Below are positions 8,143 to 39,460 of a stretch of DNA of 64,000 bases, piece after piece (position 1 is the stretch's first letter; each line of letters begins with the position of its first letter). The notes under the pieces were generated by a model. That model ran no database searches, was not told the origin of the DNA, and worked only from the letters and a program-made list of their open reading frames with translations. This DNA is from a virus. The position numbers and the translations under genes are program-made. The stretch lies in the IMG/VR virus record IMGVR_UViG_3300032050_000010; one strand, written 5' to 3'.

Positions 8143-8494
8143 AAGAGCTGAGATCTTTATAAAGGTTATTGCGTGGCGGATTGTATCCACCACGCTTAGC
8201 TTCTTTGTCATCTATCATTTTACAGGTAGCGTGGCGACAACAACGCACGCACTTGCAATCGGAACAAGCATAGGAATAGTGTCCCAGTGGCTGTTTGAGA
8301 TGACGTGGGACACGTTTATACGGAGCAGATTGAGACATGCCCTTTCAGGACAACAAGGTAGAATTGATCGGTTACTACGGTGGAGACGAGGCACACGCGA
8401 TGTCAGCGTGGACGAGCACCAGCAGGGATCTGACGGAGGAGAAGCGTGGAAGGATCCCAACTCTCCTGAAAATGCTGGCCGAGAATGGACATGA
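8135..8494 (+). CDS. small membrane protein, DUF2061-like
   Basis: KVIAWRIVSTTLSFFVIYHFTGS...WLFEMTW resembles DUF2061; TTG start; 3' end overlaps thyX. Confidence 0.5.
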   Translation: MSRRAEIFIKVIAWRIVSTTLSFFVIYHFTGSVATTTHALAIGTSIGIVSQWLFEMTWDTFIRSRLRHALSGQQGRIDRLLRWRRGTRDVSVDEHQQGSDGGEAWKDPNSPENAGREWT

Positions 8495-9433: not shown

Positions 9434-10235
9434 AGGACCTGAAGTCAAGATTGTATCTGAGTCGCTTGGCCGCGCGTTGCAAGGTCGGGCAATCGTCGGC
9501 ATCAACTATTTGGGCGGCCGCTACGCGAAGCACGGGCCTCCTGAGGGACACGCAGAAATTTCATCGGAGCTGCCCCAGAATGTGTCTGTCACATCTTGTA
9601 AGGGCAAGTTTATATACCTAACACTCCAAAATAATTGGGTAATCTGGAACACTCTGGGTATGACGGGTGGCTGGTCAAAGACGCAGCACAAACACAGCAG
9701 AGCGCAGTTTCTACTCGACGACGGGACATCTGTCTTCTTCAACGATCCACGCAACTTCGGCACGCTGAAGTACGTCCACGGGCTTGATGCACTTCAAGAG
9801 AAGTTGGATGAGCTTGGGCCCGACATGCTGGCAGAGGATGTTTCGGACGACTTGTTCATCAGACGGATGCGGAAGAAGAATAAGCGTGTGATCACAGAGA
9901 GCCTGATGGACCAGAAGGTGATCTGCGGTGTGGGCAACTACCTCAAATCTGAGAGCCTCTATTTCGCCGGGATCTCCCCTATGCGTCATGTCAACACCAT
10001 GACAGATGAAGAGCTGTCTCGGCTCAACCAGACGATTAAGGCAGTCATCCGTGCATCCTACCAGACAGGCGGCGCGACGATCTACACATTCCAGGGGTTC
10101 GACGGCGAGAAAGGACAATACAGTCGCCGCTTCGCTGTTTATAATCAAGACAAGGATCCTAAAGGGTGGGATGTGAAATCCTTCACCTCACCCGAGGGCC
10201 GCACAACATTCTGGGTTCCAGAGGAGCAAACATGA
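9426..10235 (+). CDS. Fpg/Nei DNA glycosylase/AP lyase, zincless finger type
   Basis: N-terminal PEGPEV, KGKF, LGMTG, DPRNFG, LMDQKVICGVGNYLKSE, GRTTFW; no Cys zinc finger. Confidence 0.92.
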   Translation: MPEGPEVKIVSESLGRALQGRAIVGINYLGGRYAKHGPPEGHAEISSELPQNVSVTSCKGKFIYLTLQNNWVIWNTLGMTGGWSKTQHKHSRAQFLLDDGTSVFFNDPRNFGTLKYVHGLDALQEKLDELGPDMLAEDVSDDLFIRRMRKKNKRVITESLMDQKVICGVGNYLKSESLYFAGISPMRHVNTMTDEELSRLNQTIKAVIRASYQTGGATIYTFQGFDGEKGQYSRRFAVYNQDKDPKGWDVKSFTSPEGRTTFWVPEEQT

Positions 10236-10459: not shown

Positions 10460-10836
10460 CAATGGATAAGCTCGACCAGATGTTCCAGATGCGTAAGGAG
10501 TTCATGGCAGCGTTGTCTGCTCATGTCCCTAATGCATACCCACAGCAACCGATCGATCTCAGCAGCAAGCAGTCACAGCAGCACTTCAGAGATCTTGCTC
10601 TCCGCGGTGTTGAGGAGATCTTCGAGGCGCTCCAGCACTTGAAGAACACGAAGCCGCATCGTGTGACTGACATCACAGATCCAGTCGATGTTGAGGCGTT
10701 CAAGGAAGAGATGGTCGATGCTTTCAACTTCTTCTTCACGCTTCTAATCCTGATGGACGTCGATGCTGAAGATCTCTACGAGGTCTTCAAGAAGAAGGAT
10801 CAGATCATTCACGACCGCATCAAGAACAGGTACTAA
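10456..10836 (+). CDS. all-alpha NTP pyrophosphatase (MazG/dimeric dUTPase-like)
   Basis: EEIFEAL ... KEEMVDAFNF (EExxE / EExxD) pattern, end K...I..RI...Y. Confidence 0.75.
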   Translation: MTMDKLDQMFQMRKEFMAALSAHVPNAYPQQPIDLSSKQSQQHFRDLALRGVEEIFEALQHLKNTKPHRVTDITDPVDVEAFKEEMVDAFNFFFTLLILMDVDAEDLYEVFKKKDQIIHDRIKNRY

Positions 10837-11786
10837 TGGACATCAAGAAGATACTACAGCGTCAGAAGGAGTTCTCTAATCTCTTCTATGACTCGTCTAA
10901 CTTTGACGACGACAAGCGTGAGGAGATGACAAAGTCGTTCGCTCTGGCACTCCACGCTGAAGTGGCGGATCTCGTCAGCTCGATCAACTTCAAAGATCAC
11001 CACGCAAATCGACGGACACCGGATCGGGAGAAGATCCTGTACGAGTCGATTGACGTGATGAGGTACCTCCTGGCGATCATGAATGTGTGGGGGTATGAAG
11101 CTGATGAAGTTGAGACAGCTTTCAACGACAAGGACACCTTCCTGCACATGCGTCATCGAGTTGAAAACGCAAAGTGGGACGGTCGTCCTGTACTAATTGT
11201 CGATGTCGATGATGTCATCGCACACTTTAGGAAGGATTACTTTGAGTGGCTTCGAGACAGTCATGACATTGATATTCCTCTTGATTATCCTGAGTACTAT
11301 GCGTCCTCTCCCCTGAAGGAGCGCGGGATCAATCCAGAGGCGTCGTTCAAGGATTTCATCAGCGAGCGTCGTCTCCGTAAAATTGAGCCAATCGAAGGTG
11401 TCCGTGCAGTTCTAAAAGCAGCCCAAGAGCTAGGCTTCTGGGTGCAGTTGCTGACTGCTCGTCCTGACCAGAACTTGATCTGTCTCTACGACACCTACCA
11501 CTGGATCTCTGAGATGGGCGTACCATTTGATGGCCTCGCCTTCAGCGGCGAGAAGTACAGGTGGATCGTGCAGAGCCAGTTCTACGGACACGTTGCAGCA
11601 TGCATCGATGACTCACCAAAGCACGCTGCAGAGTACGCAAATCACGGTTTGCTTGTACTCTCACCTGCATTGTCTTATAATGCATCATTGGCTGGCACTT
11701 CTGGTGTCACTCGATACGAAGATCCTGATCAACTACTTCTACAACTAATTCAAATCAAAGAGGAAATCAATGCCACAAGACACTAA
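10836..11786 (+). CDS. MazG-like NTP pyrophosphatase fused to a HAD 5'(3')-nucleotidase
   Basis: N-terminal EVADL...YESIDVMRY; C-terminal IVDVDDVIA, LTAR, IDDSP, YN. Confidence 0.8.
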   Translation: MDIKKILQRQKEFSNLFYDSSNFDDDKREEMTKSFALALHAEVADLVSSINFKDHHANRRTPDREKILYESIDVMRYLLAIMNVWGYEADEVETAFNDKDTFLHMRHRVENAKWDGRPVLIVDVDDVIAHFRKDYFEWLRDSHDIDIPLDYPEYYASSPLKERGINPEASFKDFISERRLRKIEPIEGVRAVLKAAQELGFWVQLLTARPDQNLICLYDTYHWISEMGVPFDGLAFSGEKYRWIVQSQFYGHVAACIDDSPKHAAEYANHGLLVLSPALSYNASLAGTSGVTRYEDPDQLLLQLIQIKEEINATRH

Positions 11787-12720
11787 TCTCAAGCCCATCA
11801 CTCTTCCTATGGCGATCCGTTTCGGCGAGGAGCCAACTACCGAGTTCGTCAACAGCCTTGATGCACTTAAGCTCGAGCTTGTTGATGCACCAGATCCCAA
11901 GTCGATCCGCCAGGCTGTCTACTGCTTCGTTAAGTCGACCTGGGCAGACCAGCACGTTCCTTACAAGGACGCAACTGAGGCTGAGCTTAGCAAGACACTT
12001 GAGGACGTCTTCGCAGGTCGTGCGCTCCCAGCAGCGATGGAGCTGATCGGTCTCACCTTCCTCGTGGGTGGCATCGACACGCAGACTGTAACGCATCTCA
12101 TCCGTCACCGTGCAGGTTCCTTCGCAGCGCAGTGCACCGGTGACCGTTGGCTTTCACACGAGCGCAGCCTTGTTCCTGGTTCCATCCAGAACAGCCCGGA
12201 GTTCTACGCTCGCTGGCAGGCACACGTCCAGGAGGCAAAGCAGCTCTACACGGACATGGTCGACTCCAAGCAGATCAGTCTGATGGATGCTCGTCACGTC
12301 CTTCCTAAGTGCCTCGAGACGTTCTACTACATGCGTATGAACATCCGCGACGCATTTGGTTTCATCAAGCAACGCCAGGACAAGCAGATCCAGCCTGAGG
12401 AGGACAACATGCTTGCAGCGCTCATGGCACGCGAGATCCTTCGCGTCTTCCCTGAGGCACACGTGGCAATCAACCTCCGTGAGCCTGCCTGGCACTACAT
12501 CAAGACGTTCCGGAATGGCACTGGTACGAACCTCTACTGGCCCGATGAGGACAGCGAGAAGCACCTCACCTACCACCCAGACGACACGATCTATCAGGCA
12601 ACACGTGACGACATGAACGGCACAGGTGGTGGTGTCCCTCACTTCCGGAAGCTCTGGAACGAGACACTTGCTGAGATTGACACGATCGTCACCAACTACA
12701 AGAACACACGGGGCATTTAA
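11770..12720 (+). CDS. divergent ThyX-fold flavoprotein
   Basis: THLIRHRAGSFAAQCTGDR, DARHVLP, N..D..GFIKQR; motif Ser replaced by Cys; C-terminal extension. Confidence 0.75.
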   Translation: MPQDTNLKPITLPMAIRFGEEPTTEFVNSLDALKLELVDAPDPKSIRQAVYCFVKSTWADQHVPYKDATEAELSKTLEDVFAGRALPAAMELIGLTFLVGGIDTQTVTHLIRHRAGSFAAQCTGDRWLSHERSLVPGSIQNSPEFYARWQAHVQEAKQLYTDMVDSKQISLMDARHVLPKCLETFYYMRMNIRDAFGFIKQRQDKQIQPEEDNMLAALMAREILRVFPEAHVAINLREPAWHYIKTFRNGTGTNLYWPDEDSEKHLTYHPDDTIYQATRDDMNGTGGGVPHFRKLWNETLAEIDTIVTNYKNTRGI

Positions 12721-18917: not shown

Positions 18918-18959
18918 ACACCGCACCGGGCGCATGTAGTATTGCTTAGAGGCAATAAC

Positions 18960-19403
18960 ATGAACAACGTCTATATCGCAAGTGGTTGGTTTTCTCCAGA
19001 GTGGCTCCAGGAAGTTGAGGACATTAAGACTGTCCTCGAGGATCTCAAACTCGATTACTTCTCTCCCAAGGATTATGCGATCGCTGAGGCAACTGCAAGC
19101 AACGACACGCAGAAGCAGATCTTTGATGGCAACGTCAAACACCTTGACATCTGTGATTGGATGATCTGCAACACCCGCAACAAGGACATGGGTTCAATCT
19201 GGGAGGCAGGCTATTTCTACGCTCGCAACAAGCCCATCGTCTACTTCTGCGCTGGCCTTCCACCCGGTGCCAAGTTCAATCTCATGCTGTCAGCAAGCGG
19301 CGTCGCTGTCTGCACTTCTCTCGATGATCTCCGTGAGTACCTGACACACTGCAAGCGTGAAGGTAAGCTGATCACTCGCAACTACAGCGGTTTGATCGAG
19401 TAA
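18960..19403 (+). CDS. nucleoside 2-deoxyribosyltransferase / nucleotide N-glycosidase family
   Basis: VYIASGWF, FSP, IFDGN, DMGSIWEAGY (catalytic Glu), NLML; promoter TTGAAC-17-TAGTAT (18914-18942). Confidence 0.85.
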   Translation: MNNVYIASGWFSPEWLQEVEDIKTVLEDLKLDYFSPKDYAIAEATASNDTQKQIFDGNVKHLDICDWMICNTRNKDMGSIWEAGYFYARNKPIVYFCAGLPPGAKFNLMLSASGVAVCTSLDDLREYLTHCKREGKLITRNYSGLIE

Positions 19404-20232: not shown

Positions 20233-21213
20233 ATGAAGATACTCATTACTGGTCACCGAGGTTTCATTGCATCTAACCTTCCACCTGCATTCGCTGATCT
20301 CGATCACGAAGTTGTCGATCCCAGCCAGCTCAGGCTGACACACAAGCTGCCGACAGGTGAGCACTGCGTCTATCGTAACAGTGAGGATGACTGGGCGCGC
20401 GAGATCAAGCGGCTCGGCGTCGATGTAGTTGTCCACAATGCAGCAGCAGTGGGCACCGATGTCGTCGCGCTCAATCCTAGCGATGCGACGCTGTCCAACG
20501 TGACAGGAACCTACAACATCTGCCGCGCTGCTGAGAAAGCACGCGCAGCCGTCCTCTACCTCGGAACGACAGTCATCTATAACACAGATCTGTATCAGGG
20601 CTCCTGGATCGCTGAGCGCTCCTCGCACGGCCCACAGACGCTCTACGGATCTCTGAAGCTGGCAGGTGAGTACATCGTCCGTGCACACAGCACGAAGTGG
20701 TCGATCGTCCGGCCCCTCTTCTGCTACGGCGGCGTGGGTGACAACAACTCACTGATCGCGAAGGGGTTCTTCGGCGCTGCACACGGCAAGGAGAAGATCG
20801 ACATGTTCCTCGATCCCAAGAAGATCAAGGATTACATGCGCGTCGAGGATTTCTGCGATGCGGTGGCAACTGTGGTCGATAAGGAGCTCTGGAACGATGA
20901 CTGGAACGTCGCTGCGGAGACGCCTGAGAACACAGGCAGGATCGTCGAGATGATGAGTGAGATCTCGTGCAAGGATCTAAAGGGTGTGGTAAAATGGCAC
21001 CCAGGAACCGACTACTTGGGTAACCATCGACTAAGCTCACAGAAGTTCAGGGATGCTTCTGGTTGGACACCAAAGTTCGACCTATATGGTGGCTTGGAAA
21101 AGTCGTGGAATGACATCCAGCGTAATCTGGGTTCCACGGATTATAATCCTCTGCGATATCTGGAAGATGCCAAGAAGCGCGGCATCGACCTCACACAATT
21201 CTTCAACCGGTGA
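20233..21213 (+). CDS. NAD-dependent NDP-sugar epimerase/dehydratase (extended SDR)
   Basis: ITGHRGFIA, HNAA, YGSLK (YxxxK); promoter GTGTAA-17-TATAAT, leaderless. Confidence 0.85.
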   Translation: MKILITGHRGFIASNLPPAFADLDHEVVDPSQLRLTHKLPTGEHCVYRNSEDDWAREIKRLGVDVVVHNAAAVGTDVVALNPSDATLSNVTGTYNICRAAEKARAAVLYLGTTVIYNTDLYQGSWIAERSSHGPQTLYGSLKLAGEYIVRAHSTKWSIVRPLFCYGGVGDNNSLIAKGFFGAAHGKEKIDMFLDPKKIKDYMRVEDFCDAVATVVDKELWNDDWNVAAETPENTGRIVEMMSEISCKDLKGVVKWHPGTDYLGNHRLSSQKFRDASGWTPKFDLYGGLEKSWNDIQRNLGSTDYNPLRYLEDAKKRGIDLTQFFNR

Positions 21214-21219
21214 AATAAC

Positions 21220-24200
21220 ATGAGTATCATTCGACCTCCGGATCGGTTTGTGGGCCTTCATGCCCACTCCGGTTTCTCGACCATGGACGGCCTCGGCTAT
21301 CCCGCCCAGCACATCGACTTCGTGCTGAAGAACGGCATGGATGCCTGGGCGTTGACTGACCACGGCAACGGCAGTGGCCTTGCCCACGCACAGTCACATG
21401 CCAAGAAGATGAAGAAGGCGGGCCAGAAGTACCGTCAGCTGAACGGGGTCGAGTTCTACTTCGTTCCATCACTGAAGAACTGGGCAGAGCAGTATCAAGA
21501 TCACAAGGACGCAGTCGCTGCTGCTCGCTCTGAGAAGAAGTCGAAGGAGGCGACTGACATCGACGCCGACGATGAGGCAGGTGCGGGTCACATCATCGAG
21601 AATGAGGATGAGACAAAGGACGCGTCATCACTCGAAGTGAAGGATGACGAGTGGAAGCGTCGCTACCACCTCGTTGTGATTGCTAAGGATAAGCGTGGCC
21701 TGTCCAACCTCTTCACGCTGGTCAAGCGGTCATTCAAGGAGGGGTACTATCGTTTCCCTCGGATTGACTTCGACATGCTCAAGCAGCACGGTGAAGGGCT
21801 TGTCGTCAGCACAGCCTGCATCGGTGGCATCATGGCGAACCGCGTCCTCCGCGGACAGGCGATGCACAAGTCAGATGCTGAGATCCAGCACGAGCTCAAG
21901 AACCTGACGGATCGGTTTGTGGACGCCGTCGGCCTCGAGAACTTCAACCTCGAGATCCAGTTCAACAAGCTGCAGGCACAGCACGACGTCAATCGGCACC
22001 TGATCGATCTGCACAAGAGCACAGGCGTCCCGCTGGTGGCGACCTGCGATAGTCACTATCCCACTCCTGACAAGTGGAAGACGCGCGAGCTCTATAAGAA
22101 GCTGGCGTGGATGAACGCAAAGGAGGAACCCAAGCCCCTCCCAGCATTCGATGAGCTGAAGTGCGAGCTCTACCCAAAGAACGCCGAGCAGATGTGGGAG
22201 GAGTTCAATCGACATACTGATGCCTACACATTCTATCAAGGCAGCGAGGAGCTGGTTCGAGATGCGATCGAGCGGACGCACGACATCGCATGGCAGCAGT
22301 GTGAGGACGTCTGGGTCGATACAGGCGCCAAGCTCCCAGTTTTCGCCACGCCTGAGAAGACAGAGTTCCAGCAGCTGGTGGATCTCGTCAAGGAGCGGAT
22401 GGGCGAGATGGGGCTGCATGAAAATCCCGAGTACATGGCGCGTGTGAAGGAGGAACTCTCAGACATCAAGCACCTGGGACACGCATCTTACTTCCTCACA
22501 ATGTACAAGATCTTCCACCGTGCTAAAGAGCGGACGCTCCTCGGGCCAGGTCGTGGATCGGCACCCGGTTCTCTCGTCAACTACATCCTTGGGATTACAC
22601 AGATTGATCCACTTCCGTTCGGCCTCCTCTGGAATCGCTTCCTTGGTCGGCATCGTGTGTCTTGGCCCGATATCGACTCCGATGCTGGTGATCGTGACGT
22701 TCTTATTGACGCGGCACGTGAGCTCTTCGGTGACGATGCTGTCATTCCCGTCTCCAACTTCAACACCCTGAAGCTGAAGTCGCTGGTGAAGGACGTCGCG
22801 AAGTTCTTCAACGTTCCGTTCGATGAGGTCAATGCGGTGACAGGACCGCTTCAGGACGAGGTCATGCCTCACGCTAAGGATGATGACCAGGAGAAGTCGG
22901 TCTTCGTCCTCAAGCACGATGACTGCATGAAGTACTCACCTGCTTACAATGCATTCATGACGAAGTACCCCGAGGTGGAGGAGCACGTTAATGCGCTCTT
23001 CATGGAGAACCGTTCGATCGGTCGTCATGCAGGCGGCGTCCTCGTTGCAGAACCCAAGGCGTTGGCTGAAGGCATGCCCATCATCGGTGTTCGCGGTGAA
23101 TTGCAGACGCCGTGGACAGAAGGTATGAACTTCCGCAACCTGGAGGACAACGGCTTCCTCAAGTTCGACTTCCTCGGCCTAACACTGCTCAAGGACGTAG
23201 AGAACTGCATCAAGCGGATCCTGATCAAACAGGGTGTCAAGAACCCGACATTCAGCCAGATCAAGGATTTCTTCGATGAGCATCTCAACTGCCGAACGGT
23301 CAAGCAGGATGATCAGCAGGTTTGGAAGCATGTCTATCACGAGGGTCGGTTCGTCGGTGTCTTCCAGTTCACAGCTGACGGTGCACGTAAGTTTTGCCTC
23401 GATGCGAAGCCCACAAACATCGGTGAGCTGGCAGCACTGACAGCAATCTACCGACCAGGCCCACTGAAGGCAAACGTCCACAAGCTGTATGTCCAGGCAA
23501 AGCGGGATGCCTCGAAGATCAAGTACGACCATCCAGTCATCCAGGAAGTGCTAGGGCCCACGTTCGGTTACGTTGTCTTCCAGGAACAGTTCATGATGCT
23601 GGCGCAGAAGCTGGCAGGGTTCTCTCCTGGTGAGGCTGACCAGCTCCGCAAGACGCTGGTCAAGAAGTCGCTGGACACGCTGGGCAAGAAGTCATCTGAG
23701 AAGGAGGCAGCGCGGAAGCAGTTCATCGACGGTGCTCTGGCACTGCACGGTGTGCCTGAGAAGGTGACTGGCCCGCTCTGGGACACGATCGAGGCTTTCT
23801 CGGTGTACGGCTTCAACAAGTCGCACTCCGTGTCCTACGCGATCGATTCCTACTATGCAGGATGGCTCCACACGCACTACGAGAAGGAGTGGTTGGCAAC
23901 AATCCTGCAGTCTGAGACAGGCAATCCCAAGGGCCTGGCAAAGGCTATTGCCGAGATCAAGGCAATCGGTTATAAGTTCTCGCAGGTCGACATCAACTAC
24001 TCAGGTACCGAGTGGACGTACTCTGATGAGATCCAGGCGTTCGTTCCGCCGCTGACATCTGTCAAGGGCCTAGGCGACTCAGCAGTGAGTGAGATCATGG
24101 AGAACAGGCCCTACCGTGCGCTGGATGACCTCCTGTTCGATGCAGAAGGTGAGTGGCGCCACTCCAAGCTGAACAAGAGCTGCCTTGAGTCGCTGATCCT

Positions 24201-24783
24201 CACTGAGAGCCTGGGTTCGCTGCAGGAGTTCAAGGACGAGCGTCTCAACAATCACAATCAGCTCCACAAGATGATCATCGAGAACTATGACACGCTCCGC
24301 AAGGGTCGCACAGGAATGACCAAGACGGCCACCAAGAAGTGGGTAAAGGAGCACGGTAAAGAGCCCGTGATCATCGACCAGCTGATCGAGGCAACAGCGG
24401 ATGTCCAAGATTGGAACCGCTACGAGAAGATCAAGAACTTCGTGGAGATCTTGACCACGGCGTCAGAAGAACTACTATTCCCACCCACCGTGATGGCAAA
24501 GATTGATCGTTCTAACGTCCCGTCTGCAATGCAGATCTCACCAGGATCGAAAGCAGTTGTCTGGTTCTGTGCGCAGGACTGGGTCAAGAAGCAGACAAAG
24601 AACGGCAAGACATTCTACACAGCATTCGCTGTTGACAATAACAGTGACACTGCAAGGATCCGTGTGTGGGGCACATTTAAAGAAGAGCCCGAGCGATACA
24701 CTATGTGGCTAGCTGAGGTAGAATATGATGCTAACTGGGGTATGTCAACCTCAGCAATGAAAATGCGAAAGATCGAGGTGTAA
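21220..24783 (+). CDS. dnaE: DNA polymerase III alpha subunit (C family)
   Basis: PHP motifs HAHS, TDHG, CDSHY; GPGRGSA, PDIDSD, KFDFLGL, YRPGP, YGFNKSHS. Confidence 0.95.
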   Translation: MSIIRPPDRFVGLHAHSGFSTMDGLGYPAQHIDFVLKNGMDAWALTDHGNGSGLAHAQSHAKKMKKAGQKYRQLNGVEFYFVPSLKNWAEQYQDHKDAVAAARSEKKSKEATDIDADDEAGAGHIIENEDETKDASSLEVKDDEWKRRYHLVVIAKDKRGLSNLFTLVKRSFKEGYYRFPRIDFDMLKQHGEGLVVSTACIGGIMANRVLRGQAMHKSDAEIQHELKNLTDRFVDAVGLENFNLEIQFNKLQAQHDVNRHLIDLHKSTGVPLVATCDSHYPTPDKWKTRELYKKLAWMNAKEEPKPLPAFDELKCELYPKNAEQMWEEFNRHTDAYTFYQGSEELVRDAIERTHDIAWQQCEDVWVDTGAKLPVFATPEKTEFQQLVDLVKERMGEMGLHENPEYMARVKEELSDIKHLGHASYFLTMYKIFHRAKERTLLGPGRGSAPGSLVNYILGITQIDPLPFGLLWNRFLGRHRVSWPDIDSDAGDRDVLIDAARELFGDDAVIPVSNFNTLKLKSLVKDVAKFFNVPFDEVNAVTGPLQDEVMPHAKDDDQEKSVFVLKHDDCMKYSPAYNAFMTKYPEVEEHVNALFMENRSIGRHAGGVLVAEPKALAEGMPIIGVRGELQTPWTEGMNFRNLEDNGFLKFDFLGLTLLKDVENCIKRILIKQGVKNPTFSQIKDFFDEHLNCRTVKQDDQQVWKHVYHEGRFVGVFQFTADGARKFCLDAKPTNIGELAALTAIYRPGPLKANVHKLYVQAKRDASKIKYDHPVIQEVLGPTFGYVVFQEQFMMLAQKLAGFSPGEADQLRKTLVKKSLDTLGKKSSEKEAARKQFIDGALALHGVPEKVTGPLWDTIEAFSVYGFNKSHSVSYAIDSYYAGWLHTHYEKEWLATILQSETGNPKGLAKAIAEIKAIGYKFSQVDINYSGTEWTYSDEIQAFVPPLTSVKGLGDSAVSEIMENRPYRALDDLLFDAEGEWRHSKLNKSCLESLILTESLGSLQEFKDERLNNHNQLHKMIIENYDTLRKGRTGMTKTATKKWVKEHGKEPVIIDQLIEATADVQDWNRYEKIKNFVEILTTASEELLFPPTVMAKIDRSNVPSAMQISPGSKAVVWFCAQDWVKKQTKNGKTFYTAFAVDNNSDTARIRVWGTFKEEPERYTMWLAEVEYDANWGMSTSAMKMRKIEV

Positions 24784-24784
24784 T

Positions 24785-25693
24785 TTGAAGTTCAATCTAA
24801 AGACAGTTGTGCTAGAAGGTGTGGATTGCAGCGGCAAGACAACACTGTTTAGGAGCTTGCATCGTGCAACAGGCTTCAAGTGGAATATCCACGATCGAAG
24901 TGCTCTCTCGATGCTCTGCTATGCAGTCATGTACGGAAGAGATGTTGACCACTGGCGGCAGCTTCTCTTGGAAGAGATCAGCGATCTGAACAATGTGATC
25001 GTTGTGCTCATGCCCCCACTGGCCACCATCAAGGATCGCCTTGCTGAAAGAGGCGACGAGTTTCAAGATCAAGTGACGATTGAGAAGTTGTACACCATCT
25101 TTGAGGATGAGGTTTCACGTCTCAGCGCATACCCTAACGTCTTAGTTTGCGCGCAATCAAAAGCTTCTAGCGATGACATCGCACGGTGGCTGCTAAACTA
25201 CGAGCGGCAGACATACAGTCGACTTGCAGAGATGACGCACGATCATGCGAGGATCAAGCTGTCTGGTGAAGCGCCTTTCCTAAAGATGACGTGGGAAGAC
25301 ACTGACTTCAAGACGCTCAGCACAAAGGCACTCTTCTACGAACCTGAGCTTGAGTACTACGAAGCAACACGCAAGAAGCTTATTGAAAAGATCCAAGCAG
25401 AGCTGGCTGGACAGAATGAGTACGAGATGAAGCAGGATCTCAAGTCGCGACGGTTTGTCATGACACAGGATAGTTGCATCTCCTATGCACACTTCATGTA
25501 TCGTGGCGGCGTGCTTCACGCCAACATCGTGTGCAGATCTTCTGAGGTGTCGCGTATCTTCCCAAATGACATCCACTTCATCGGTCACATGGGTCAGACA
25601 GCCCGACGTGAGCTCGGCCTCACCGTTGAGACACCCGTGAGGTTTAATCTCACTCTCGACTCAGCACATGTAATCTTTCAACCTACGCATTAA
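24785..25693 (+). CDS. dNMP kinase fused to a thymidylate-synthase-fold (dCMP-type) domain
   Basis: EGVDCSGKTT, HDRS..S...Y, RL..RGD; C-terminal SRR, SCIS, CRSSEVSRIFPND, SAH. Confidence 0.75.
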   Translation: MKFNLKTVVLEGVDCSGKTTLFRSLHRATGFKWNIHDRSALSMLCYAVMYGRDVDHWRQLLLEEISDLNNVIVVLMPPLATIKDRLAERGDEFQDQVTIEKLYTIFEDEVSRLSAYPNVLVCAQSKASSDDIARWLLNYERQTYSRLAEMTHDHARIKLSGEAPFLKMTWEDTDFKTLSTKALFYEPELEYYEATRKKLIEKIQAELAGQNEYEMKQDLKSRRFVMTQDSCISYAHFMYRGGVLHANIVCRSSEVSRIFPNDIHFIGHMGQTARRELGLTVETPVRFNLTLDSAHVIFQPTH

Positions 25694-25710: not shown

Positions 25711-26703
25711 ATGAAGAGAGCATTAGTAACGGGCGGCGCCGGCTTCATTGGGTCAAATCTGACGCACGCGCTTGTCGATGATGGCTGGACAGTTGACGTA
25801 GTAGACGACATGTCGAACGGCCACCTCAACCTTCTTGATAATTTGAGCTATCGAGTTTTTCTGCCGGGCATGGCAGAAATCTATGAAGCACAGAAGCAGA
25901 GAACTTCGAAAGAAGTTTACGTGCATGAGTGTGACTTTGCACACCCAGTCATTCTAGACAGAATTGCTCGGAAGCAATACGACGTCGTCTTCCACCAGGC
26001 AGCTGTTCCGCAAGTTTCCTACTCTGTCGAGCAGCCTACGAAGACGACAGACGTCAATCTTCTGAGAAGCATTGAGCTTCTCCATTCTTGCGTCGGCAAC
26101 GTCGACAAGGTGGTTGTTGCATCATCATCAGCTGTCTATGGTAATACGGAGACACTGCCGACAACTGAAGAGACGCCACGTAACCCAAGATCTCCATACG
26201 GCCTCCAGAAGAGTGCTCTTGAGGATTTCTGTCGACTATTTGGTGAGCTCTACGATCTAGACACCGTCTGTCTGCGTTATTTCAACGTTTTTGGAGCAGG
26301 CCAGTACGGCGACTCACCTTATTCCACAGCAGTGTCTGCATGGTGTGATGCAATCAAACACGGACGAACACTTAGATCAGATGGTGACGGATCGCAGTCC
26401 CGTGACATGTGTCATGTTGACAATGTTGTAAGTGCCAATATTCTTGCTGCCAAGACGCCGAACCGCCTCATGGGCAAAGGGTACAACATCTGCTGCGGTG
26501 AGCGGACGACAAACCTTGAGATCCTCCAGCACCTCACAGGAGCATTTCCAACAGTTGAAGTTCGTCACGCTCCCTGGCGTCCAGGTGATGTTAAGCACAC
26601 ACTGGGTGACTGGTCAGCAGCAAATCGTGACTTCGGATACCAACCAATAGTTAAGTTCTGGGATGGGCTTGAGAAGACGCTCGCCTGGTGGGAGCTCAAG
26701 TAA
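25711..26703 (+). CDS. NAD-dependent NDP-sugar 4-epimerase (GalE/WbpP-like)
   Basis: VTGGAGFIGS, FHQAA, ASSSAVYG, SPYGLQK, LRYFNVFG, RPGDVKH. Confidence 0.92.
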   Translation: MKRALVTGGAGFIGSNLTHALVDDGWTVDVVDDMSNGHLNLLDNLSYRVFLPGMAEIYEAQKQRTSKEVYVHECDFAHPVILDRIARKQYDVVFHQAAVPQVSYSVEQPTKTTDVNLLRSIELLHSCVGNVDKVVVASSSAVYGNTETLPTTEETPRNPRSPYGLQKSALEDFCRLFGELYDLDTVCLRYFNVFGAGQYGDSPYSTAVSAWCDAIKHGRTLRSDGDGSQSRDMCHVDNVVSANILAAKTPNRLMGKGYNICCGERTTNLEILQHLTGAFPTVEVRHAPWRPGDVKHTLGDWSAANRDFGYQPIVKFWDGLEKTLAWWELK

Positions 26704-28116: not shown

Positions 28117-28527
28117 ATGCGTCCAGGCTGGGATGAAGTGTGGATGAACATCGCACGTGAAGTATCACGCAGGTCAGCAGACGACAAGTACAAAGTTGGA
28201 ACTGTGATAGTCACTGGAGACAACACACAAGTGCTGTCGCTAGGATACAACGGCGACCACGCAGGTGGCCCAAATTGCAGAGAGTCGAGTGACCCTGGCG
28301 AGTCAGGTTTTATCCATGCCGAGATGAACGCGCTGATCAAGCTTGACTACAATAACCTAAAGCGACGTGTTATGTACGTTACGTTGTCGCCCTGTAAGAT
28401 GTGCGCTAAAGCAATCATCAATGCAGGTATCAACGAGCTCGTGTACGGCGAAGATTATAGAGATCTCAGCGGTATTGACATTCTCACAGGCGCTGGGATA
28501 AAAGTTAGAAAAATAACTCAAACTTAG
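28117..28527 (+). CDS. dCMP deaminase
   Basis: GYNG, HAEMNA, TLSPCKMC. Confidence 0.9.
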   Translation: MRPGWDEVWMNIAREVSRRSADDKYKVGTVIVTGDNTQVLSLGYNGDHAGGPNCRESSDPGESGFIHAEMNALIKLDYNNLKRRVMYVTLSPCKMCAKAIINAGINELVYGEDYRDLSGIDILTGAGIKVRKITQT

Positions 28528-28540
28528 CGGATAGATATAG

Positions 28541-28840
28541 ATGATGAAAAAGTTAACTCCACAAGATGTAAACAAACTGATCAGACGATCTCTGACCAAG
28601 GTTGTGCTTGAAAAGCTAACAGTGAAAGTGGGCAAAGAGGTCGTCGTCTCACCTGAGCTTAAGATCCGTCACGTTGGAAACAACAAAATTGAGGGCTCTA
28701 AGTATCTTTACACAATCACTGGGATTGACAACGTCGACGGTGTTCTCCAGTTGAAGATGAAGTACTACGACGACGACACTCCTGAGCCCCTTGAGACGAT
28801 CGTGGCGCAAGATGAATTTGACCAATACGAGCTGGCATAA
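28541..28840 (+). CDS. hypothetical protein with N-terminal head-targeting-like helix
   Basis: LTPQDVNKLIRRSL..VVLE; ATAGATA upstream. Confidence 0.65.
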   Translation: MMKKLTPQDVNKLIRRSLTKVVLEKLTVKVGKEVVVSPELKIRHVGNNKIEGSKYLYTITGIDNVDGVLQLKMKYYDDDTPEPLETIVAQDEFDQYELA

Positions 28841-29541
28841 TGAGTAAAGACATCACACAAATTGTCCGTCAGACACTTGGCTTAAGCGGTGAGACAGCCA
28901 AGAGCTCAAAGCGGCTCGACGAGGCGCTTGTTGCCGACCCTAAGCCTTTCAATCTTCCCACAGAGTTCCAGAGTGCTGGCACAAAACGTGCTCACTTTGA
29001 GCTGTATGAAAACTACATCAAGGCCTTCAACCGCATCAGCGCAGAACTAGACAGCGCCGATAGGACAGAAGTTAATTCCAACAACAGTCAGTTTCGCTCG
29101 TTGAAGATCGATGAAACGTACAACATGAACGCGATCTTCCTCCACGAGCTCTACTTTGCCAACATCAGTGATCTACACAGCAAGATCACAATGGACTCGC
29201 TCACTTACATGCGGCTCCAGCGTGACTTTGGCACGTTCGACAAGTGGCAGGAGGATTTCCTCGCCTGCTGTCAGGCATCCCGCTGCGGTTGGGCAGTCAC
29301 ATACTACAACCTCTTCACACAGACATACATGAATGCTGTCGTCGATCTACACAGCATTGAGATCCCGGTTGGGTGCTTTCCAGTGATTGTGATGGATGTG
29401 TGGCAGCACGCTTACTACAAGGATTATCTCCGGGATGTGAAGACATACAGCATCGCGATGATGAAGGAGCTCAACTGGCGAGTCATCGAGGATCGCTTCA
29501 AGCAATCTGAGCGCGTCGCACAAGCAATGAGGTCACTATGA
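28840..29541 (+). CDS. Fe/Mn superoxide dismutase-like protein with N-terminal extension
   Basis: HFELY..Y, LHELYF, FGTFDKW, GWA, DVWQHAYY. Confidence 0.85.
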   Translation: MSKDITQIVRQTLGLSGETAKSSKRLDEALVADPKPFNLPTEFQSAGTKRAHFELYENYIKAFNRISAELDSADRTEVNSNNSQFRSLKIDETYNMNAIFLHELYFANISDLHSKITMDSLTYMRLQRDFGTFDKWQEDFLACCQASRCGWAVTYYNLFTQTYMNAVVDLHSIEIPVGCFPVIVMDVWQHAYYKDYLRDVKTYSIAMMKELNWRVIEDRFKQSERVAQAMRSL

Positions 29542-33062: not shown

Positions 33063-33398
33063 GTGAGCTTTGGATTTAAACTTCCCTTCCGCGAGGAGGG
33101 GCTTCCCGTCAAGGTCGACCAGAGCACATGGGCGCACTTCGACGATGGCAGAAAGCTGAGGAAGACATACGAGTTTGTCAAGTTCAGAGCTTTCCACTCC
33201 TTCGTCTCAGAGCTGCTCGTCAAAGCCCGACAGATGCACCACGAGCCGCACATCGAGCTCGAGGGGCTGAAGGTCACGATCACGCTGCAGACCCGTGTGA
33301 TCGACGATGTGTCAGAGCAAGATCTCGTCCTGTCACGGTTCTGTGACGACCTCTACAACGACGTCCGTTACTACTACGGCACTGATAAGGTCGCCTGA
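33063..33398 (+). CDS. pterin-4a-carbinolamine dehydratase-like protein
   Basis: LRKTYEF..F, HHEP, V.I.L.T, S..D..L. Confidence 0.75.
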   Translation: MSFGFKLPFREEGLPVKVDQSTWAHFDDGRKLRKTYEFVKFRAFHSFVSELLVKARQMHHEPHIELEGLKVTITLQTRVIDDVSEQDLVLSRFCDDLYNDVRYYYGTDKVA

Positions 33399-37864: not shown

Positions 37865-39460
37865 ATGGAAGAGACAGACAAGTTAGTCGTCTTTGATGCA
37901 GCTGCTCGTGAGAAGCTCCTCGCGGGTGTCAATACTTTGGCCGATGCTGTCCGAGTGACGATGGGCCCACGAGGTCGCAACGTCCTGATCGAGCAGCGCG
38001 GTCAACACCCGATCGTCACTAAGGACGGCGTCACTGTTGCGAAGTCGATCAATCTCCGCGACAAGTTGCAGAACTTGGGCGCCCAGATGATCAAGGAGGC
38101 AGCGTCCCGTTCGGCTGATGAAGCAGGAGATGGGACAACCACAGCAACTGTCCTCACGCAGGCGATCTTCAGCGAAGGCCTAAAGCTTGTTCTAGCAGGC
38201 TACCCATCGACTGACATCAAGGCGGGTATCGACCAAGCAGTCGAGCAGATCATCAGTAAGATTGACCAGATCGCTGTGCCTGCGGGATCACCAGAGGTAC
38301 TGCGTCGTGTTGCAGTCATCTCAGCCAACGGCGAAGAGAGCCTGGGCGAGCTGATTGAGAATGCCATCAGGACAGTGGGTGAGGACGGTGTCGTCACAGT
38401 CGAGGAAGCAAAGGGTTACAACAGCAGCTTGACTGTCGTCGATGGCACTCGCATTGACCGCGGATACACGTCTCCCTACTTCGTCACCGATCAAGATCGG
38501 ATGGTGTGTGAGATGGAGAAGCCTGCTGTGCTCCTCCTGAATAGGCGGATTGAGACGATCAAGGACATTGTGGGCCTCCTCGAGAAGAGCCTGTCCAACA
38601 AGCGCCCACTCCTCATCATCGCAGACGACATCGACGGCGAAGCAATGCAGACACTCGTCCTTAACAGAGTGCGTGGTGCATTGAGCGTTTGTGCCATCAG
38701 AGCTCCTGGGGCTGGCGCAGGTCGATATGATCAGATGCAGGATCTTGCTGTCCTGCTCGGCACTCGTGTCTTCTCTGCTGCTGATGCTGAGGATCTGTCA
38801 AAGGTGCAACTCACAGAGTTAGGCACATGCAACAAGGCGCTGATCGGGCGCACCGAGACAGTTCTAGTAGGCGCCAATGCTGACAGAGATCGGGTAGGTG
38901 AACGCCTCGACGAGATCCGGAAGCAGTATGCAGAGGCGATCGATGAGGGTGAGCGGCTGCAGACAAAGCAGCGTCTTGCCCGCCTATCAGGTGGCGTTGC
39001 CATCCTCCGTGTTGGCGGTGCCACCGAGGCGGAGCTTAAGGAACGTAAGGATCGTGCTGACGACGCACTGCACGCTGTGCAAGCTGCCATGAAGGAGGGT
39101 GTCGTCCCCGGCGGTGGCACAACACTCGTCAGAGCAGCCAACGATGTCCCGCTTCCTGCTGGTGACTTCACACCTGTTCAGGCGGGCTTTCAGGTTGTCA
39201 AGACAGCATGCCGTGCACCGTTCAGGCAGATCGTCACAAATAGCGGTGGAACACCCGAGATTGTGCTCAACCACTTGAACACGTTAAGCAGCACACACGT
39301 CTACGATGCCTTCCACGGCACTTATGGAGAGATGCTCGAGCTTGGGATCGTTGATCCTGCGCGGGTCGTCAAGTGTGCTCTGAGAAATGCCGCCTCTGCA
39401 GCAGGCATGATGCTCACTGTAGGATGCGCTCTCGTTGAGGATGAAGCGCCTGCAACGTGA
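37865..39460 (+). CDS. groEL: GroEL-like chaperonin
   Basis: TMGPRGRNV, TKDGVTVA, GDGTTTAT, VGGATEAE, GVVPGGG. Confidence 0.95.
   Translation: MEETDKLVVFDAAAREKLLAGVNTLADAVRVTMGPRGRNVLIEQRGQHPIVTKDGVTVAKSINLRDKLQNLGAQMIKEAASRSADEAGDGTTTATVLTQAIFSEGLKLVLAGYPSTDIKAGIDQAVEQIISKIDQIAVPAGSPEVLRRVAVISANGEESLGELIENAIRTVGEDGVVTVEEAKGYNSSLTVVDGTRIDRGYTSPYFVTDQDRMVCEMEKPAVLLLNRRIETIKDIVGLLEKSLSNKRPLLIIADDIDGEAMQTLVLNRVRGALSVCAIRAPGAGAGRYDQMQDLAVLLGTRVFSAADAEDLSKVQLTELGTCNKALIGRTETVLVGANADRDRVGERLDEIRKQYAEAIDEGERLQTKQRLARLSGGVAILRVGGATEAELKERKDRADDALHAVQAAMKEGVVPGGGTTLVRAANDVPLPAGDFTPVQAGFQVVKTACRAPFRQIVTNSGGTPEIVLNHLNTLSSTHVYDAFHGTYGEMLELGIVDPARVVKCALRNAASAAGMMLTVGCALVEDEAPAT

What the first reader, a model, noticed from the sequence alone, without database searches (positions are those of the whole stretch)
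24785..25693. Kinase fused to a minimal thymidylate-synthase fold with the cytosine-specifying Asp
Seen: the C-terminal ~150 aa contain SRR, a Cys (SCIS), CRSSEVSRIFPND and SAH. Known: ThyA has RSxD...PFN, where Asn selects dUMP; T4 dCMP hydroxymethylase has RSND...FRND, where Asp selects dCMP. Here the position is Asp, RSxD has become RSSE, and the domain looks too short to hold the usual folate-binding parts. Inference: a dCMP-acting enzyme that may use a non-folate donor such as an NDP-sugar, channelled to its own kinase.
Basis: partly seen in the sequence, partly recalled or inferred. Interest (0 to 1): 0.8.

Follow-up and report, generated by a model that had tools for sequence, protein, structure and literature searches.

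The report
Kinase fused to miniature cytosine-type thymidylate synthase
A large uncultured phage encodes, right behind its DNA polymerase gene, a nucleotide kinase fused to a stripped-down thymidylate-synthase-like enzyme built to grip dCMP, which probably makes a modified cytosine nucleotide for the phage's DNA.

Summary
Observation confirmed. The ORF at 24785-25693 (+) encodes 302 aa. Residues 1-142 are a Tmk/YorR-like P-loop kinase. Residues 143-302 are a confidently modelled (pLDDT 94) thymidylate-synthase (TS) core of only about 160 aa.

It keeps the catalytic Cys231, the SRR pair, R251-S252, His295 and a probable Glu58 equivalent. Asp sits at the ThyA Asn177 position in 247 of 247 relatives. 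ThyA residues about 66-124 and 210-264, which hold most folate contacts, are missing.

By sequence, the only solved relatives are two dCMP enzymes: the flavin/O2-dependent phage dCMP 5-hydroxylase (AfhB, RB69 gp48) and T4 dCMP hydroxymethylase.

The family is large (410 clusters) and metagenome-only. It also occurs as two overlapping genes (kinase, then mini-TS). It always lies near a divergent long ThyX-like gene.

Best reading: a bifunctional enzyme that modifies dCMP at C5 and phosphorylates a nucleotide in the same pathway. I lean towards flavin-dependent 5-hydroxylation over folate chemistry. The product and cofactor are not shown.

The first stage flagged the same architecture in another genome. 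I rate it a new variant of a known kind, of moderately high interest.

The parts
24785..25693 (+). Whole gene: 302-aa kinase / mini-TS fusion. TTG start, translationally coupled to dnaE.
   Evidence: There are 228 full-length homologs of about 300 aa. The AF2 model has pLDDT 94 and pTM 0.88.
24772..24787 (+). GAGGTG Shine-Dalgarno, TAA stop of dnaE, and the TTG start 1 nt later.
   Evidence: Sequence. In relatives the two genes overlap by 4 nt.
24785..25210 (+). Residues 1-142: Tmk/YorR-like P-loop nucleotide kinase. P-loop G12-T20 is at 24818-24844, D37-R38 at 24893-24898, and LID R85/R89-G-D at 25037-25057.
   Evidence: phrog_761 'thymidylate kinase' 1.6e-12. Domain profile to YorR 2axp E 2.1e-11. 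VIA Z 12.6 to 2jaq, 12.5 to YorR and 12.3 to Tmk. Invariant residues.
25211..25690 (+). Residues 143-302: miniature thymidylate-synthase fold (helix A, strand, long helix B, SRR strand, Cys strand, R-S strand, helix J, SAH strand).
   Evidence: Foldseek top hits 9iqu and 9iqc. VIA Z 11.7 to 9iqu, 11.2 to ThyA and MilA. Profile to PDB finds only 9iqc/9iqu (0.004) and 1b49 (0.023). Secondary structure.
25346..25360 (+). E188-L-E-Y-Y, the probable equivalent of ThyA E58-L-L-W-F and T4 gp42 E60-L-E-W-Y at the start of helix B.
   Evidence: E188 is in 232 of 247 and Y192 in 225 of 247, and both are invariant in stand-alone forms. The equivalence rests on motif and secondary-structure order, so it is inferred.
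25448..25453 (+). R222-R223, equivalent to ThyA R126'-R127' (phosphate-binding pair donated across the dimer).
   Evidence: Alignments. In the predicted homodimer, domain residues 83 and 84 touch the partner's 112 and 113.
25475..25483 (+). C231-I232-S233: the catalytic-Cys position (ThyA C146).
   Evidence: Aligned Cys-to-Cys with 9iqc, 1b49, RB69 gp48, T4 gp42 and ThyA. Cys is kept in 244 of 247.
25535..25546 (+). R251-S252-S253-E254, equivalent to ThyA R166-S167-C168-D169. The last position varies in the family.
   Evidence: R in 245 of 247, S in 246 of 247, and position 254 is N 86, E 79, D 75.
25568..25570 (+). D262 at the ThyA Asn177 position, the base-selecting residue (Asp selects cytosine).
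   Evidence: Asp in 247 of 247. Aligned with the Asp of 9iqc, T4 gp42 and RB69 gp48. The role of N177D is described in PMC13326640.
25661..25669 (+). S293-A294-H295, equivalent to ThyA H207 (AfhB and RB69 gp48 have SAH, T4 has SLH). The protein ends 7 residues later.
   Evidence: His in 244 of 247.
21220..24783 (+). Context: DnaE-type replicative polymerase directly upstream.
   Evidence: DnaE precedes the fusion in every relative examined.
11770..12720 (+). Context: long divergent ThyX-like gene, co-conserved with the mini-TS. A functional link is inferred, not shown.
   Evidence: Present in 11 of 11 large records and beside the stand-alone mini-TS in L018, L020 and L021.
25711..26703 (+). 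Context: SDR resembling a UDP-sugar 4-epimerase (TviC/GalE-like, below family cut-offs). A second SDR lies at 20233-21213.
   Evidence: Usually flanking, but absent in L016 (SDR2) and L017 (SDR1).
28117..28527 (+). Context: dCMP deaminase, conserved a few genes downstream. It is adjacent to the stand-alone mini-TS in L018.
10836..11786 (+). Context: dUTPase_2 (all-alpha NTP pyrophosphatase, the Pfam family that T4 gp56 dCTPase also hits) fused to an NT5C 5'-nucleotidase.

Best explanation
The gene encodes a bifunctional enzyme of a phage pathway that remodels deoxypyrimidine nucleotides.

The C-terminal domain is a dimeric, miniature TS-fold enzyme. It binds dCMP: Asp262 reads the cytosine N3/N4 face, and R251/S252 together with R222'/R223' from the partner subunit hold the phosphate. 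Cys231 attacks C6, which makes C5 nucleophilic so that a C5 substituent can be installed.

The fused Tmk/YorR-like kinase then converts the modified dCMP to the diphosphate, as T4 gp1 does for hm-dCMP. This feeds the DnaE polymerase, whose gene is translationally coupled to this one. The other order, where the kinase supplies the mini-TS with its substrate, is less likely.

The substituent I think most likely is a hydroxyl delivered by a reduced flavin plus O2, as in the phage 5-hydroxy-dCMP synthases AfhB and RB69 gp48. The canonical folate pocket is largely missing.

Shown here: the fold, the residue set, the conservation, the fused and split architecture, and the gene context.

Inferred: the substrate, the catalysis, the direction of flux and, most weakly, the cofactor and product.

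My odds are about 0.55 for 'dCMP C5-modifying enzyme plus pathway kinase', and about 0.35 of the total for 5-hydroxylation specifically.
For: - Fold: AF2 pLDDT 94, pTM 0.88. The top Foldseek PDB hits are dCMP hydroxylase AfhB 9iqu (5e-6) and 9iqc. VIA Z is 11.7 to 9iqu (150 aligned, rmsd 3.1) and 11.2 to ThyA and MilA, which is a tie.
- Sequence: the C-domain profile finds only 9iqc/9iqu (E 0.004) and T4 dCMP hydroxymethylase (E 0.023) among 177,635 PDB sequences. hhalign gives probability 75 for RB69 gp48, 71 for T4 gp42 and 32 for E. coli ThyA.
- Conservation: Asp262 in 247 of 247, plus Cys, Arg-Ser, Arg-Arg and His near-invariant. The same set is invariant in stand-alone forms.
- Dimer: the predicted homodimer scores 0.52 against a best control of 0.00. 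That mark was reached by 20 of 30 proteins solved as pairs of one chain and by 1 of 23 solved as single chains. The runs share at least 94% of contacts and the partner's pLDDT is at least 86. R222/R223 touch the partner's R251/S252. TS dimers are solved, so this pass may come from the model's memory of them and shows likeness only.
- Kinase competence: the P-loop, D37-R38 and R85/R89-G-D are invariant. YorR matches at E 2e-11.
- Rosetta stone: in L018 the kinase (P0269) and the mini-TS (P0256) are overlapping separate genes. hhalign probability is 97.
- Precedent: the 5hoC gene clusters of DLP3, RB69 and RL38J1 each carry a YorR/Tmk-like 'nucleotide kinase' next to the TS-homolog synthase (PMC13326640).
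- T4-like logic in the neighbourhood: a dUTPase_2 family gene (T4 gp56 hits the same family) and a dCMP deaminase. ThyX supplies dTMP and no ThyA is present.
- Like AfhB and gp48, the protein ends just after the SAH strand.
Against: - No activity, product or cofactor has been observed.
- The proposed diagnostic of 5hodCMP synthases, Asn at ThyA D169 (PMC13326640), is Glu here and is N, E or D in roughly equal thirds of the family.
- The domain also lacks the middle region that AfhB and gp48 retain, about 60 more residues before the Cys. A flavin site is therefore not assured.
- Structural Z-scores do not separate AfhB from ThyA or MilA.
- Pfam's TS model does not detect the domain, although it does detect RB69 gp48.
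- PF01613 flavin reductase is in 0 of 11 related genomes. GT1 glycosyltransferases are in only 5 of 11 and are not linked to the gene.
- One phage (L018) carries a second Asp-type TS homolog beside the mini-TS, so the two may not do the same job.
- The kinase's substrate and the order of the two steps are unknown.
Confidence: 0.55

Rival explanations
1. It is a folate-dependent dCMP hydroxymethylase or methylase (like T4 gp42, or the XP12-type dCMP methylase) fused to its kinase. CH2-THF would bind in a reduced or remodelled pocket, perhaps completed by the kinase domain or the dimer partner.
For: - T4 gp42 is nearly as close as the hydroxylase (E 0.023 against 0.004; hhalign probability 71 against 75).
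- The ELEYY motif resembles T4's E60-L-E-W-Y.
- The ThyA D169 position keeps a carboxylate or amide (N, E or D), which could still bond a pterin ring.
- The ThyA L143 position is polar, as in hydroxymethylases (PMC13326640).
Against: - The segments equivalent to ThyA 66-124 (with W80 and W83) and 210-264 (the C-terminal lid) are absent.
- No folate-handling gene was seen; DHFR is in 0 of 11 related genomes, though this is weak evidence because hydroxymethylation does not oxidise folate.
Confidence: 0.15
2. It represents a new cofactor arrangement. The pocket-less mini-TS only activates dCMP through Cys231, and the electrophile comes from a partner. The partner could be the co-conserved long ThyX-like flavoprotein (as flavin reductase or flavin-methylene carrier). 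Alternatively it could be a small tetrahydropterin plus O2, with the conserved pterin-4a-carbinolamine dehydratase recycling the by-product. The product could be a cytosine modification not yet described.
For: - The long ThyX-like gene is in 11 of 11 large records and lies beside every stand-alone mini-TS examined. It overlaps the mini-TS gene in L021.
- Its substrate loop differs from canonical ThyX, and a canonical ThyX is present as well.
- Pterin_4a is in 11 of 11 records, 8-13 kb from the fusion, while an aromatic amino-acid hydroxylase is in only 1 of 11.
- L018 has another Asp-type TS homolog beside the mini-TS.
Against: - Gene order is conserved across this whole clade, so proximity is weak evidence.
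- Pterin_4a was not seen near the stand-alone forms.
- One genome does carry a phage aromatic amino-acid hydroxylase, which gives the dehydratase an ordinary partner.
- No interaction between the proteins was tested.
Confidence: 0.15
3. It is an ordinary phage thymidylate or dNMP kinase. The TS-like domain would be a non-catalytic dimerisation or dCMP-sensing (regulatory) module.
For: - Public sources name some members 'thymidylate kinase'.
- No other Tmk was found in the 164-kb record.
- The cofactor pocket is missing.
Against: - Near-perfect conservation of the full catalytic set (Cys, Glu, Arg-Ser, Arg-Arg, Asp, His) across fused and stand-alone forms at about 25-30% identity is not expected of a mere scaffold.
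- The mini-TS also exists as a gene of its own.
Confidence: 0.1
4. One reading: the TS-fold domain transfers a sugar from an NDP-sugar directly onto C5 of dCMP.
For: Two SDR genes of the NDP-sugar epimerase/dehydratase type usually flank dnaE and the fusion.
Against: - I found no precedent for a TS fold using NDP-sugars.
- In the known systems, sugars are added by GT-B glycosyltransferases to a pre-installed 5-OH or 5-CH2OH group (PMC13326640).
- Either SDR can be absent.
Confidence: 0.03

Closest known systems
Phage 5-hydroxy-dCMP synthase / dCMP hydroxylase (HY126 AfhB, PDB 9iqu and 9iqc; RB69 gp48; DLP3 gp80)
   Same: - TS fold with a catalytic Cys, Asp at the Asn177 position, an R-D/G-G motif after the Cys strand, and an SAH motif.
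- The chain ends right after the SAH strand.
- It is the best Foldseek and best HMM match.
- Its gene clusters contain a YorR/Tmk-like kinase.
   Different: - The mini-TS has about 60 fewer residues before the Cys.
- Pfam's TS model does not detect it, whereas gp48 scores 2.4e-15.
- The ThyA D169 position is Glu here rather than the diagnostic Asn.
- It is fused to the kinase.
- No flavin evidence exists for it.
T4 gp42 dCMP hydroxymethylase (PDB 1b49)
   Same: - Specific for dCMP through Asp.
- Shares the Cys, R-S, SRR and ELE(W/Y)Y motifs.
- Sits in a T4-like pathway with a dCTPase-family gene, a dCMP deaminase and a dNMP kinase.
   Different: gp42 is 246 aa with the folate-binding middle region and a 28-aa C-terminal extension. 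It is not fused to a kinase.
ThyA thymidylate synthase (E. coli, L. casei)
   Same: Same core fold (Z 11.2 for the fusion, 14.6 for the stand-alone form), the same phosphate-binding arginines, and the same predicted dimer.
   Different: - ThyA has Asn177 where the mini-TS has Asp.
- About 105 residues are missing: ThyA 66-124, an 11-residue loop between SRR and Cys, and 210-264.
- ThyA His147 is Ile here and Tyr209 is not kept.
MilA CMP hydroxymethylase with MilB (mildiomycin pathway)
   Same: An Asp-type TS homolog (Z 11.2, and 14.7 for the stand-alone form). A Nuc_deoxyrib_tr-family gene, the family I recall MilB belonging to, is conserved nearby.
   Different: MilA is 318 aa, folate-dependent and acts on the ribonucleotide. 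The pairing with MilB's family is only an analogy here.
SPbeta YorR and thymidylate kinases; functional analogue T4 gp1 dNMP kinase
   Same: P-loop, DR motif and LID arginines. YorR matches at E 2e-11 and Z is 12.3-12.6.
   Different: - Only 142 aa.
- It scores below the Pfam and NCBIfam Tmk cut-offs.
- Its substrate is unknown.
- The match to RB69 gp45 covers the P-loop only.

Membership tests
Thymidylate synthase / dCMP hydroxymethylase superfamily | TS alpha/beta core fold | tested here: met
   VIA Z 11.7 to 9iqu (150 aligned, rmsd 3.1) and 11.2 to ThyA and MilA. The stand-alone relative scores Z 14.7 to MilA and 14.6 to ThyA.
Thymidylate synthase / dCMP hydroxymethylase superfamily | Catalytic Cys (ThyA C146) on the central strand | tested here: met
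   C231 aligns with the Cys of 9iqc, 1b49, RB69 gp48, T4 gp42 and ThyA. It is kept in 244 of 247.
Thymidylate synthase / dCMP hydroxymethylase superfamily | Phosphate-binding R166-S167 and R126'-R127' donated across an obligate dimer | tested here: met
   R251-S252 and R222-R223 are conserved. The homodimer model scores 0.52 against a best control of 0.00. The mark was reached by 20 of 30 proteins solved as pairs of one chain and 1 of 23 solved as single chains. Contacts agree by at least 94% and pLDDT is at least 86. R222/R223 contact the partner's R251/S252. The pass may reflect the model's memory of solved TS dimers.
Thymidylate synthase / dCMP hydroxymethylase superfamily | Glu58 on helix B | tested here: inconclusive
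   The near-invariant E188-L-E-Y-Y resembles T4 E60-L-E-W-Y and ThyA E58-L-L-W-F, and it sits at the start of the matching helix. No tool produced a residue-level structural alignment.
Thymidylate synthase / dCMP hydroxymethylase superfamily | Scores above the gathering threshold of Pfam PF00303 | tested here: not met
   No PF00303 hit even at E <= 10. A genome search with PF00303 finds nothing in the own record or in 11 relatives. phrog_160 matches only weakly (0.0023).
dCMP/CMP-specific TS homologs | Asp in place of ThyA Asn177 | tested here: met
   D262, with Asp in 247 of 247 family members.
5-hydroxy-dCMP synthase (AfhB / RB69 gp48 type) | Asn at the ThyA D169 position (the diagnostic proposed in PMC13326640) | tested here: not met
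   This protein has E254. Across the family the position is N 86, E 79, D 75.
5-hydroxy-dCMP synthase (AfhB / RB69 gp48 type) | Acidic or polar residue at the ThyA L143 position | tested here: inconclusive
   This protein has Q228. The family has Q, S, D, E or N, which are polar but not consistently acidic.
5-hydroxy-dCMP synthase (AfhB / RB69 gp48 type) | Binds a flavin and uses O2 to hydroxylate C5 | not testable with these tools
   This needs protein, spectroscopy and LC-MS. No coordinates were available for mapping the 9iqc FAD site.
Folate-dependent TS / dCMP hydroxymethylase | Folate-binding elements: the W80/W83 helix region, the C-terminal lid, and an invariant Asp169 | tested here: not met
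   The regions equivalent to ThyA 66-124 and 210-264 are absent. The D169 position varies.
Thymidylate kinase / YorR-like nucleotide kinases | P-loop, DR motif after strand 3, and LID arginines on the kinase fold | tested here: met
   G12-x4-G17-K18-T, D37-R38 and R85/R89-G-D are invariant. Z is 12.3-12.6. YorR matches at E 2.1e-11.
Thymidylate kinase / YorR-like nucleotide kinases | Scores above the curated cut-off of PF02223 or TIGR00041 | tested here: not met
   PF02223 scores 14.8 bits against a cut-off of 27. TIGR00041 scores 19.9 against 83.

The most novel reading that the evidence does not exclude
[quoted passage not shown] It would activate dCMP with its Cys and take the electrophile from a partner or a small diffusible cofactor. 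Candidates are reduced flavin from the co-conserved long ThyX-like protein, or a tetrahydropterin recycled by the conserved pterin-4a dehydratase. The result would be a cytosine modification, possibly an undescribed one, that is widespread in uncultured aquatic jumbo phages and in smaller PolA- and PolB-type phages.
Probability: 0.2. Interest if true: 0.85.

Novelty: new variant of a known kind. Interest (0 to 1): 0.65.

Why it matters
TS homologs are the entry point of nearly every known pyrimidine hypermodification in phage DNA. The flavin-dependent 5-hydroxylating branch was recognised only in 2025-26.

This family is about 40% smaller than ThyA, is invisible to Pfam's TS model, and is annotated at best as 'thymidylate kinase'. 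It nevertheless forms 410 clusters at 50% identity, spread over phages with DnaE, PolA or PolB replication.

If it is active, three things follow:
- It marks a large set of uncultured phages whose DNA probably carries modified cytosine. That matters for restriction and CRISPR evasion, and for sequencing bias in viromes.
- It defines the minimal catalytic core of the TS fold.
- It offers a natural synthase-kinase fusion for making modified dCDP or dCTP.

Tried and rejected
- **Cultured relatives.** Megablast of the locus and tblastn of P0001 and P0111 against 50,697 phage records found nothing. No cultured phage is available for known DNA chemistry. The stand-alone P0256 only grazes the 'thymidylate synthase' of Bacteroides phages (E 4e-3).
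- **Pfam.** Nothing on the C-domain or on ten stand-alone members.
- **Cluster kinase.** I tried to tie the kinase domain to RB69 gp45, the kinase of the 5hoC cluster. hhalign matched the P-loop only, so no specific kinship was shown.
- **Hydroxylase versus hydroxymethylase.** Structural Z-scores are tied. hhalign gives probability 75 against 71, which is too close to decide.
- **Co-occurrence in 11 large related records.**
  - GT1 is in 5 of 11 and is unlinked.
  - DHFR is in 0 of 11.
  - Flavin_Reduct is in 0 of 11.
  - ThyA is in 0 of 11.
  - None of these discriminates between cofactors.
- **FAD_syn-like gene.** The ORF at 51957-52457 matches the generic cytidylyltransferase family equally well, so I did not use it as flavin evidence.
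- **MAFFT.** It could not align the N-terminal half of the mini-TS to ThyA, gp42 or gp48. The Glu58 assignment therefore rests on a motif.
- **Literature.** Searches for a described kinase/TS fusion found none. The He et al. paper on AfhB is not in the library.
- **NDP-sugar donor.** Considered and rejected; see the rival explanations.
Full report
**What is there.** The ORF at 24785-25693 (+) encodes 302 aa. It starts at a TTG one nucleotide after the TAA stop of a 1187-aa DnaE-type polymerase gene, behind a GAGGTG ribosome-binding site. In relatives the two genes overlap by 4 nt.

The window lies in a 163,948-bp virus record that CheckV estimates to be 49% complete. The record has T4-like capsid, portal, sheath and terminase genes. 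The window itself is a replication and nucleotide-metabolism block with RecA, DnaB, ribonucleotide reductase, GroEL and a sigma-70 factor. This is a large T4-related myovirus that replicates with DnaE.

**Two domains.** AlphaFold2 with a 28-sequence alignment gives pLDDT 94 and pTM 0.88.

Residues 1-142 are a small P-loop nucleotide kinase:
- phrog_761 'thymidylate kinase' scores 1.6e-12.
- The domain profile finds SPbeta YorR at E 2.1e-11 and then thymidylate kinases.
- VIA Z is 12.6 to deoxyadenosine kinase 2jaq, 12.5 to YorR and 12.3 to Tmk.
- The P-loop, D37-R38 and the LID R85/R89-G-D are invariant, so the kinase looks competent.
- It stays below the Pfam and NCBIfam Tmk cut-offs.

Residues 143-302 are a thymidylate-synthase core:
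- The top Foldseek PDB hits are the phage HY126 dCMP hydroxylase AfhB (9iqu, 5e-6) and 9iqc.
- VIA Z is 11.7 to 9iqu, with 150 residues aligned at rmsd 3.1. It is 11.2 to ThyA and to MilA, which is effectively a tie.
- By sequence, the domain profile finds only four distinct PDB sequences. These are 9iqc and 9iqu (E about 0.004) and T4 dCMP hydroxymethylase (E 0.023 and 0.36). Cys, Arg-Ser, Asp and Ser-x-His are in register in each alignment.
- hhalign gives probability 75 for RB69 gp48, 71 for T4 gp42 and 32 for E. coli ThyA.
- Pfam's TS model does not see the domain, although it does see RB69 gp48.

**What is kept and what is lost.** I aligned 247 relatives that have a full core. The counts are:

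| Residue here | ThyA equivalent | Kept in |
|---|---|---|
| D262 | N177 | 247 |
| C231 | C146 | 244 |
| R251 | R166 | 245 |
| S252 | S167 | 246 |
| R222 | R126 | 245 |
| R223 | R127 | R 219, K 17, Q 11 |
| H295 | H207 | 244 |
| E188 | probably E58 | 232 |
| R240 | none (shared with gp42 and gp48) | 239 |

E188 begins an E-L-E-Y-Y motif that resembles T4 gp42's E60-L-E-W-Y and ThyA's E58-L-L-W-F. It sits at the start of the matching helix. I inferred this equivalence from the motif and the order of secondary structure, because MAFFT could not align that half.

Three segments are lost. The stretch between helix B and the SRR strand (ThyA about 66-124, including W80 and W83) is gone. Eleven residues between SRR and the Cys are gone. 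Everything after the His strand (ThyA 210-264) is gone. AfhB and gp48 also end just after SAH, but they keep about 60 more residues before the Cys.

The ThyA D169 position, which binds the pterin in ThyA, is Glu here. In the family it is N 86, E 79, D 75. The L143 position is polar.

**Dimer.** Two copies of the domain are predicted to pair with a score of 0.52 against a best control of 0.00. That mark was reached by 20 of 30 proteins solved as pairs of one chain and by 1 of 23 solved as single chains. The runs share at least 94% of contacts, and the partner's pLDDT is at least 86. R222/R223 touch the partner's R251/S252, which is the ThyA arrangement. TS dimers are solved, so this shows likeness and not proof of binding.

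**The family.** There are 228 full-length homologs of about 300 aa. The domain profile finds 410 clusters at 50% identity, and IMG/VR holds 131 loci. None is in 50,697 cultured-phage records.

The domain also exists alone, as proteins of 164-216 aa with the same invariant set. One of these folds on its own with pLDDT 94.3, and scores Z 14.7 to MilA, 14.6 to ThyA and 14.1 to AfhB.

In L018 a 159-aa kinase gene overlaps the stand-alone mini-TS gene. hhalign to the fusion's kinase domain gives probability 97. The kinase/mini-TS pairing is therefore conserved in both fused and split forms.

**Context.** In relatives down to 36-42% identity, the gene order is: long ThyX-like, Nuc_deoxyrib_tr, (SDR), DnaE, fusion, (SDR), TK, DHH, dCMP deaminase, then a SOD-like gene. 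Either SDR can be missing.

The stand-alone forms sit beside PolA, PolB or UDG-PolB genes. They again have a long ThyX-like gene, a 5'-nucleotidase and a small kinase nearby.

I searched 11 large related records, one of them 100% complete:
- All 11 have the long ThyX-like gene, and 7 also have a canonical ThyX.
- None has ThyA, DHFR or a PF01613 flavin reductase.
- GT1 glycosyltransferases occur in 5 of 11 and are not linked to the fusion.

The own record has one GT1 gene, 66 kb upstream of the window. The window also has a dUTPase_2/NT5C fusion. T4's dCTPase gp56 hits the same Pfam family. Together with the dCMP deaminase, this mirrors the T4 scheme of dCTPase, dCMP-modifying TS homolog, dNMP kinase and deaminase. 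That parallel is my inference.

**Comparison with what is known.** PMC13326640 shows that RB69 gp48 and DLP3 gp80 are TS homologs carrying N177D, L143E and D169N. They make 5-hydroxy-dCMP with a flavin and O2. Their gene clusters contain a YorR/Tmk-like 'nucleotide kinase', glycosyltransferases and NDP-sugar genes.

The present protein shares the Asp, the C-terminal truncation and the kinase link. It fails the D169N diagnostic and is much smaller. I therefore do not file it as a 5hodCMP synthase. I say only that it most likely works like one of the dCMP-specific TS homologs.

The best explanation is a bifunctional enzyme that modifies dCMP at C5 and acts as the pathway's kinase (about 0.55). 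Flavin/O2 5-hydroxylation is the leading chemistry, at about 0.35 of the total. The rivals are folate chemistry (0.15), a partner-supplied or pterin cofactor with a possibly new product (0.15), a scaffold or regulatory domain (0.10), and direct sugar transfer (0.03).

First-stage notes show the same architecture was flagged in another genome. The motif quoted there, RSSECSQTFHRD, is the one in P0054 of my alignment.

Noticed in passing
window 11770-12720 (+); canonical copy at 8337-9005 (+): A long (316 aa) divergent ThyX-like protein keeps the RHR motif, but the canonical S-x-N-x-E-S-x-R-Y substrate loop reads SFAAQCTGDR. It occurs in 11 of 11 large related records and beside every stand-alone mini-TS examined. 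A normal ThyX is present as well. It may be a partner of the mini-TS or a separate pyrimidine-modifying enzyme.
   Followed up: partly
window 33063-33398 (+): A pterin-4a-carbinolamine dehydratase (PF01329, 1.8e-13) lies directly after a conserved 751-aa protein that has no Pfam or PHROG match. It is present in 11 of 11 related records, always 8-13 kb from the fusion. An aromatic amino-acid hydroxylase is present in only 1 of 11. It looks like an orphan pterin-recycling enzyme.
   Followed up: partly
window 28840-29541 (+): A 233-aa protein with only the C-terminal domain of Fe/Mn superoxide dismutase. It is conserved in the same block in all relatives examined.
   Followed up: no
window 10836-11786 (+): A fusion of a dUTPase_2 (all-alpha NTP pyrophosphatase) domain with an NT5C 5'-deoxynucleotidase. 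T4 gp56 dCTPase hits the same Pfam family, so this may be the enzyme that clears dCTP and dUTP from the pool.
   Followed up: partly
window 18942-19403 (+): A Nuc_deoxyrib_tr family protein (1.3e-16) is conserved next to the long ThyX-like gene. From memory, this family includes dNMP and hm-CMP N-glycosidases such as DNPH1 and MilB, the partner of the TS homolog MilA.
   Followed up: no
window 20233-21213 (+) and 25711-26703 (+): Two SDR genes of the NDP-sugar epimerase/dehydratase type bracket dnaE and the fusion. One resembles RmlB/RmlD and the other TviC/GalE, and both score below family cut-offs. Each is missing in some relatives.
   Followed up: partly
L018:4157-4825 (+), protein P0271: A 222-aa ThyA-family protein in a PolA-type phage contig also has Asp at the Asn177 position, Glu at the D169 position and T-R-Q in place of S-R-R. 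It sits 3 kb from a stand-alone mini-TS and next to a long ThyX-like gene. That makes three TS-type genes in one small contig.
   Followed up: partly
G002:C1:71689-72171 and G004:C1:116459-116899 (related IMG/VR records): The match to the mini-TS domain carries one in-frame stop in each record (TAG in G002, TAA in G004). This could be a pseudogene, a split gene, a sequencing error or recoding.
   Followed up: no
L006:5085-10004 compared with L005:6417-10004: The DnaE gene upstream of identical fusion proteins is intact (1195 aa) in one contig. In the other it is split into pieces of 995, 118 and 368 aa, which suggests an insertion such as a homing element or intein.
   Followed up: no
L021:6488-9364 (+): A uracil-DNA glycosylase domain fused to a family-B DNA polymerase lies directly after a stand-alone mini-TS gene.
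   Followed up: no
window 9002-10235 (+), 7540-8142 (+), 37865-39460 (+), 40801-41535 (+), 42893-43624 (+): The phage carries HhH-GPD and Fpg/Nei DNA glycosylases, ClpP, a GroEL chaperonin, a sigma-70 factor and a SpoU-type RNA methylase.
   Followed up: no
G000:C1:131000-163948 (right of the window): This region has genes on both strands, including a Dam methylase, a di-haem cytochrome c peroxidase, GreA and topoisomerase subunits. IMG/VR labels the record 'provirus', so part of this region may be host DNA.
   Followed up: no
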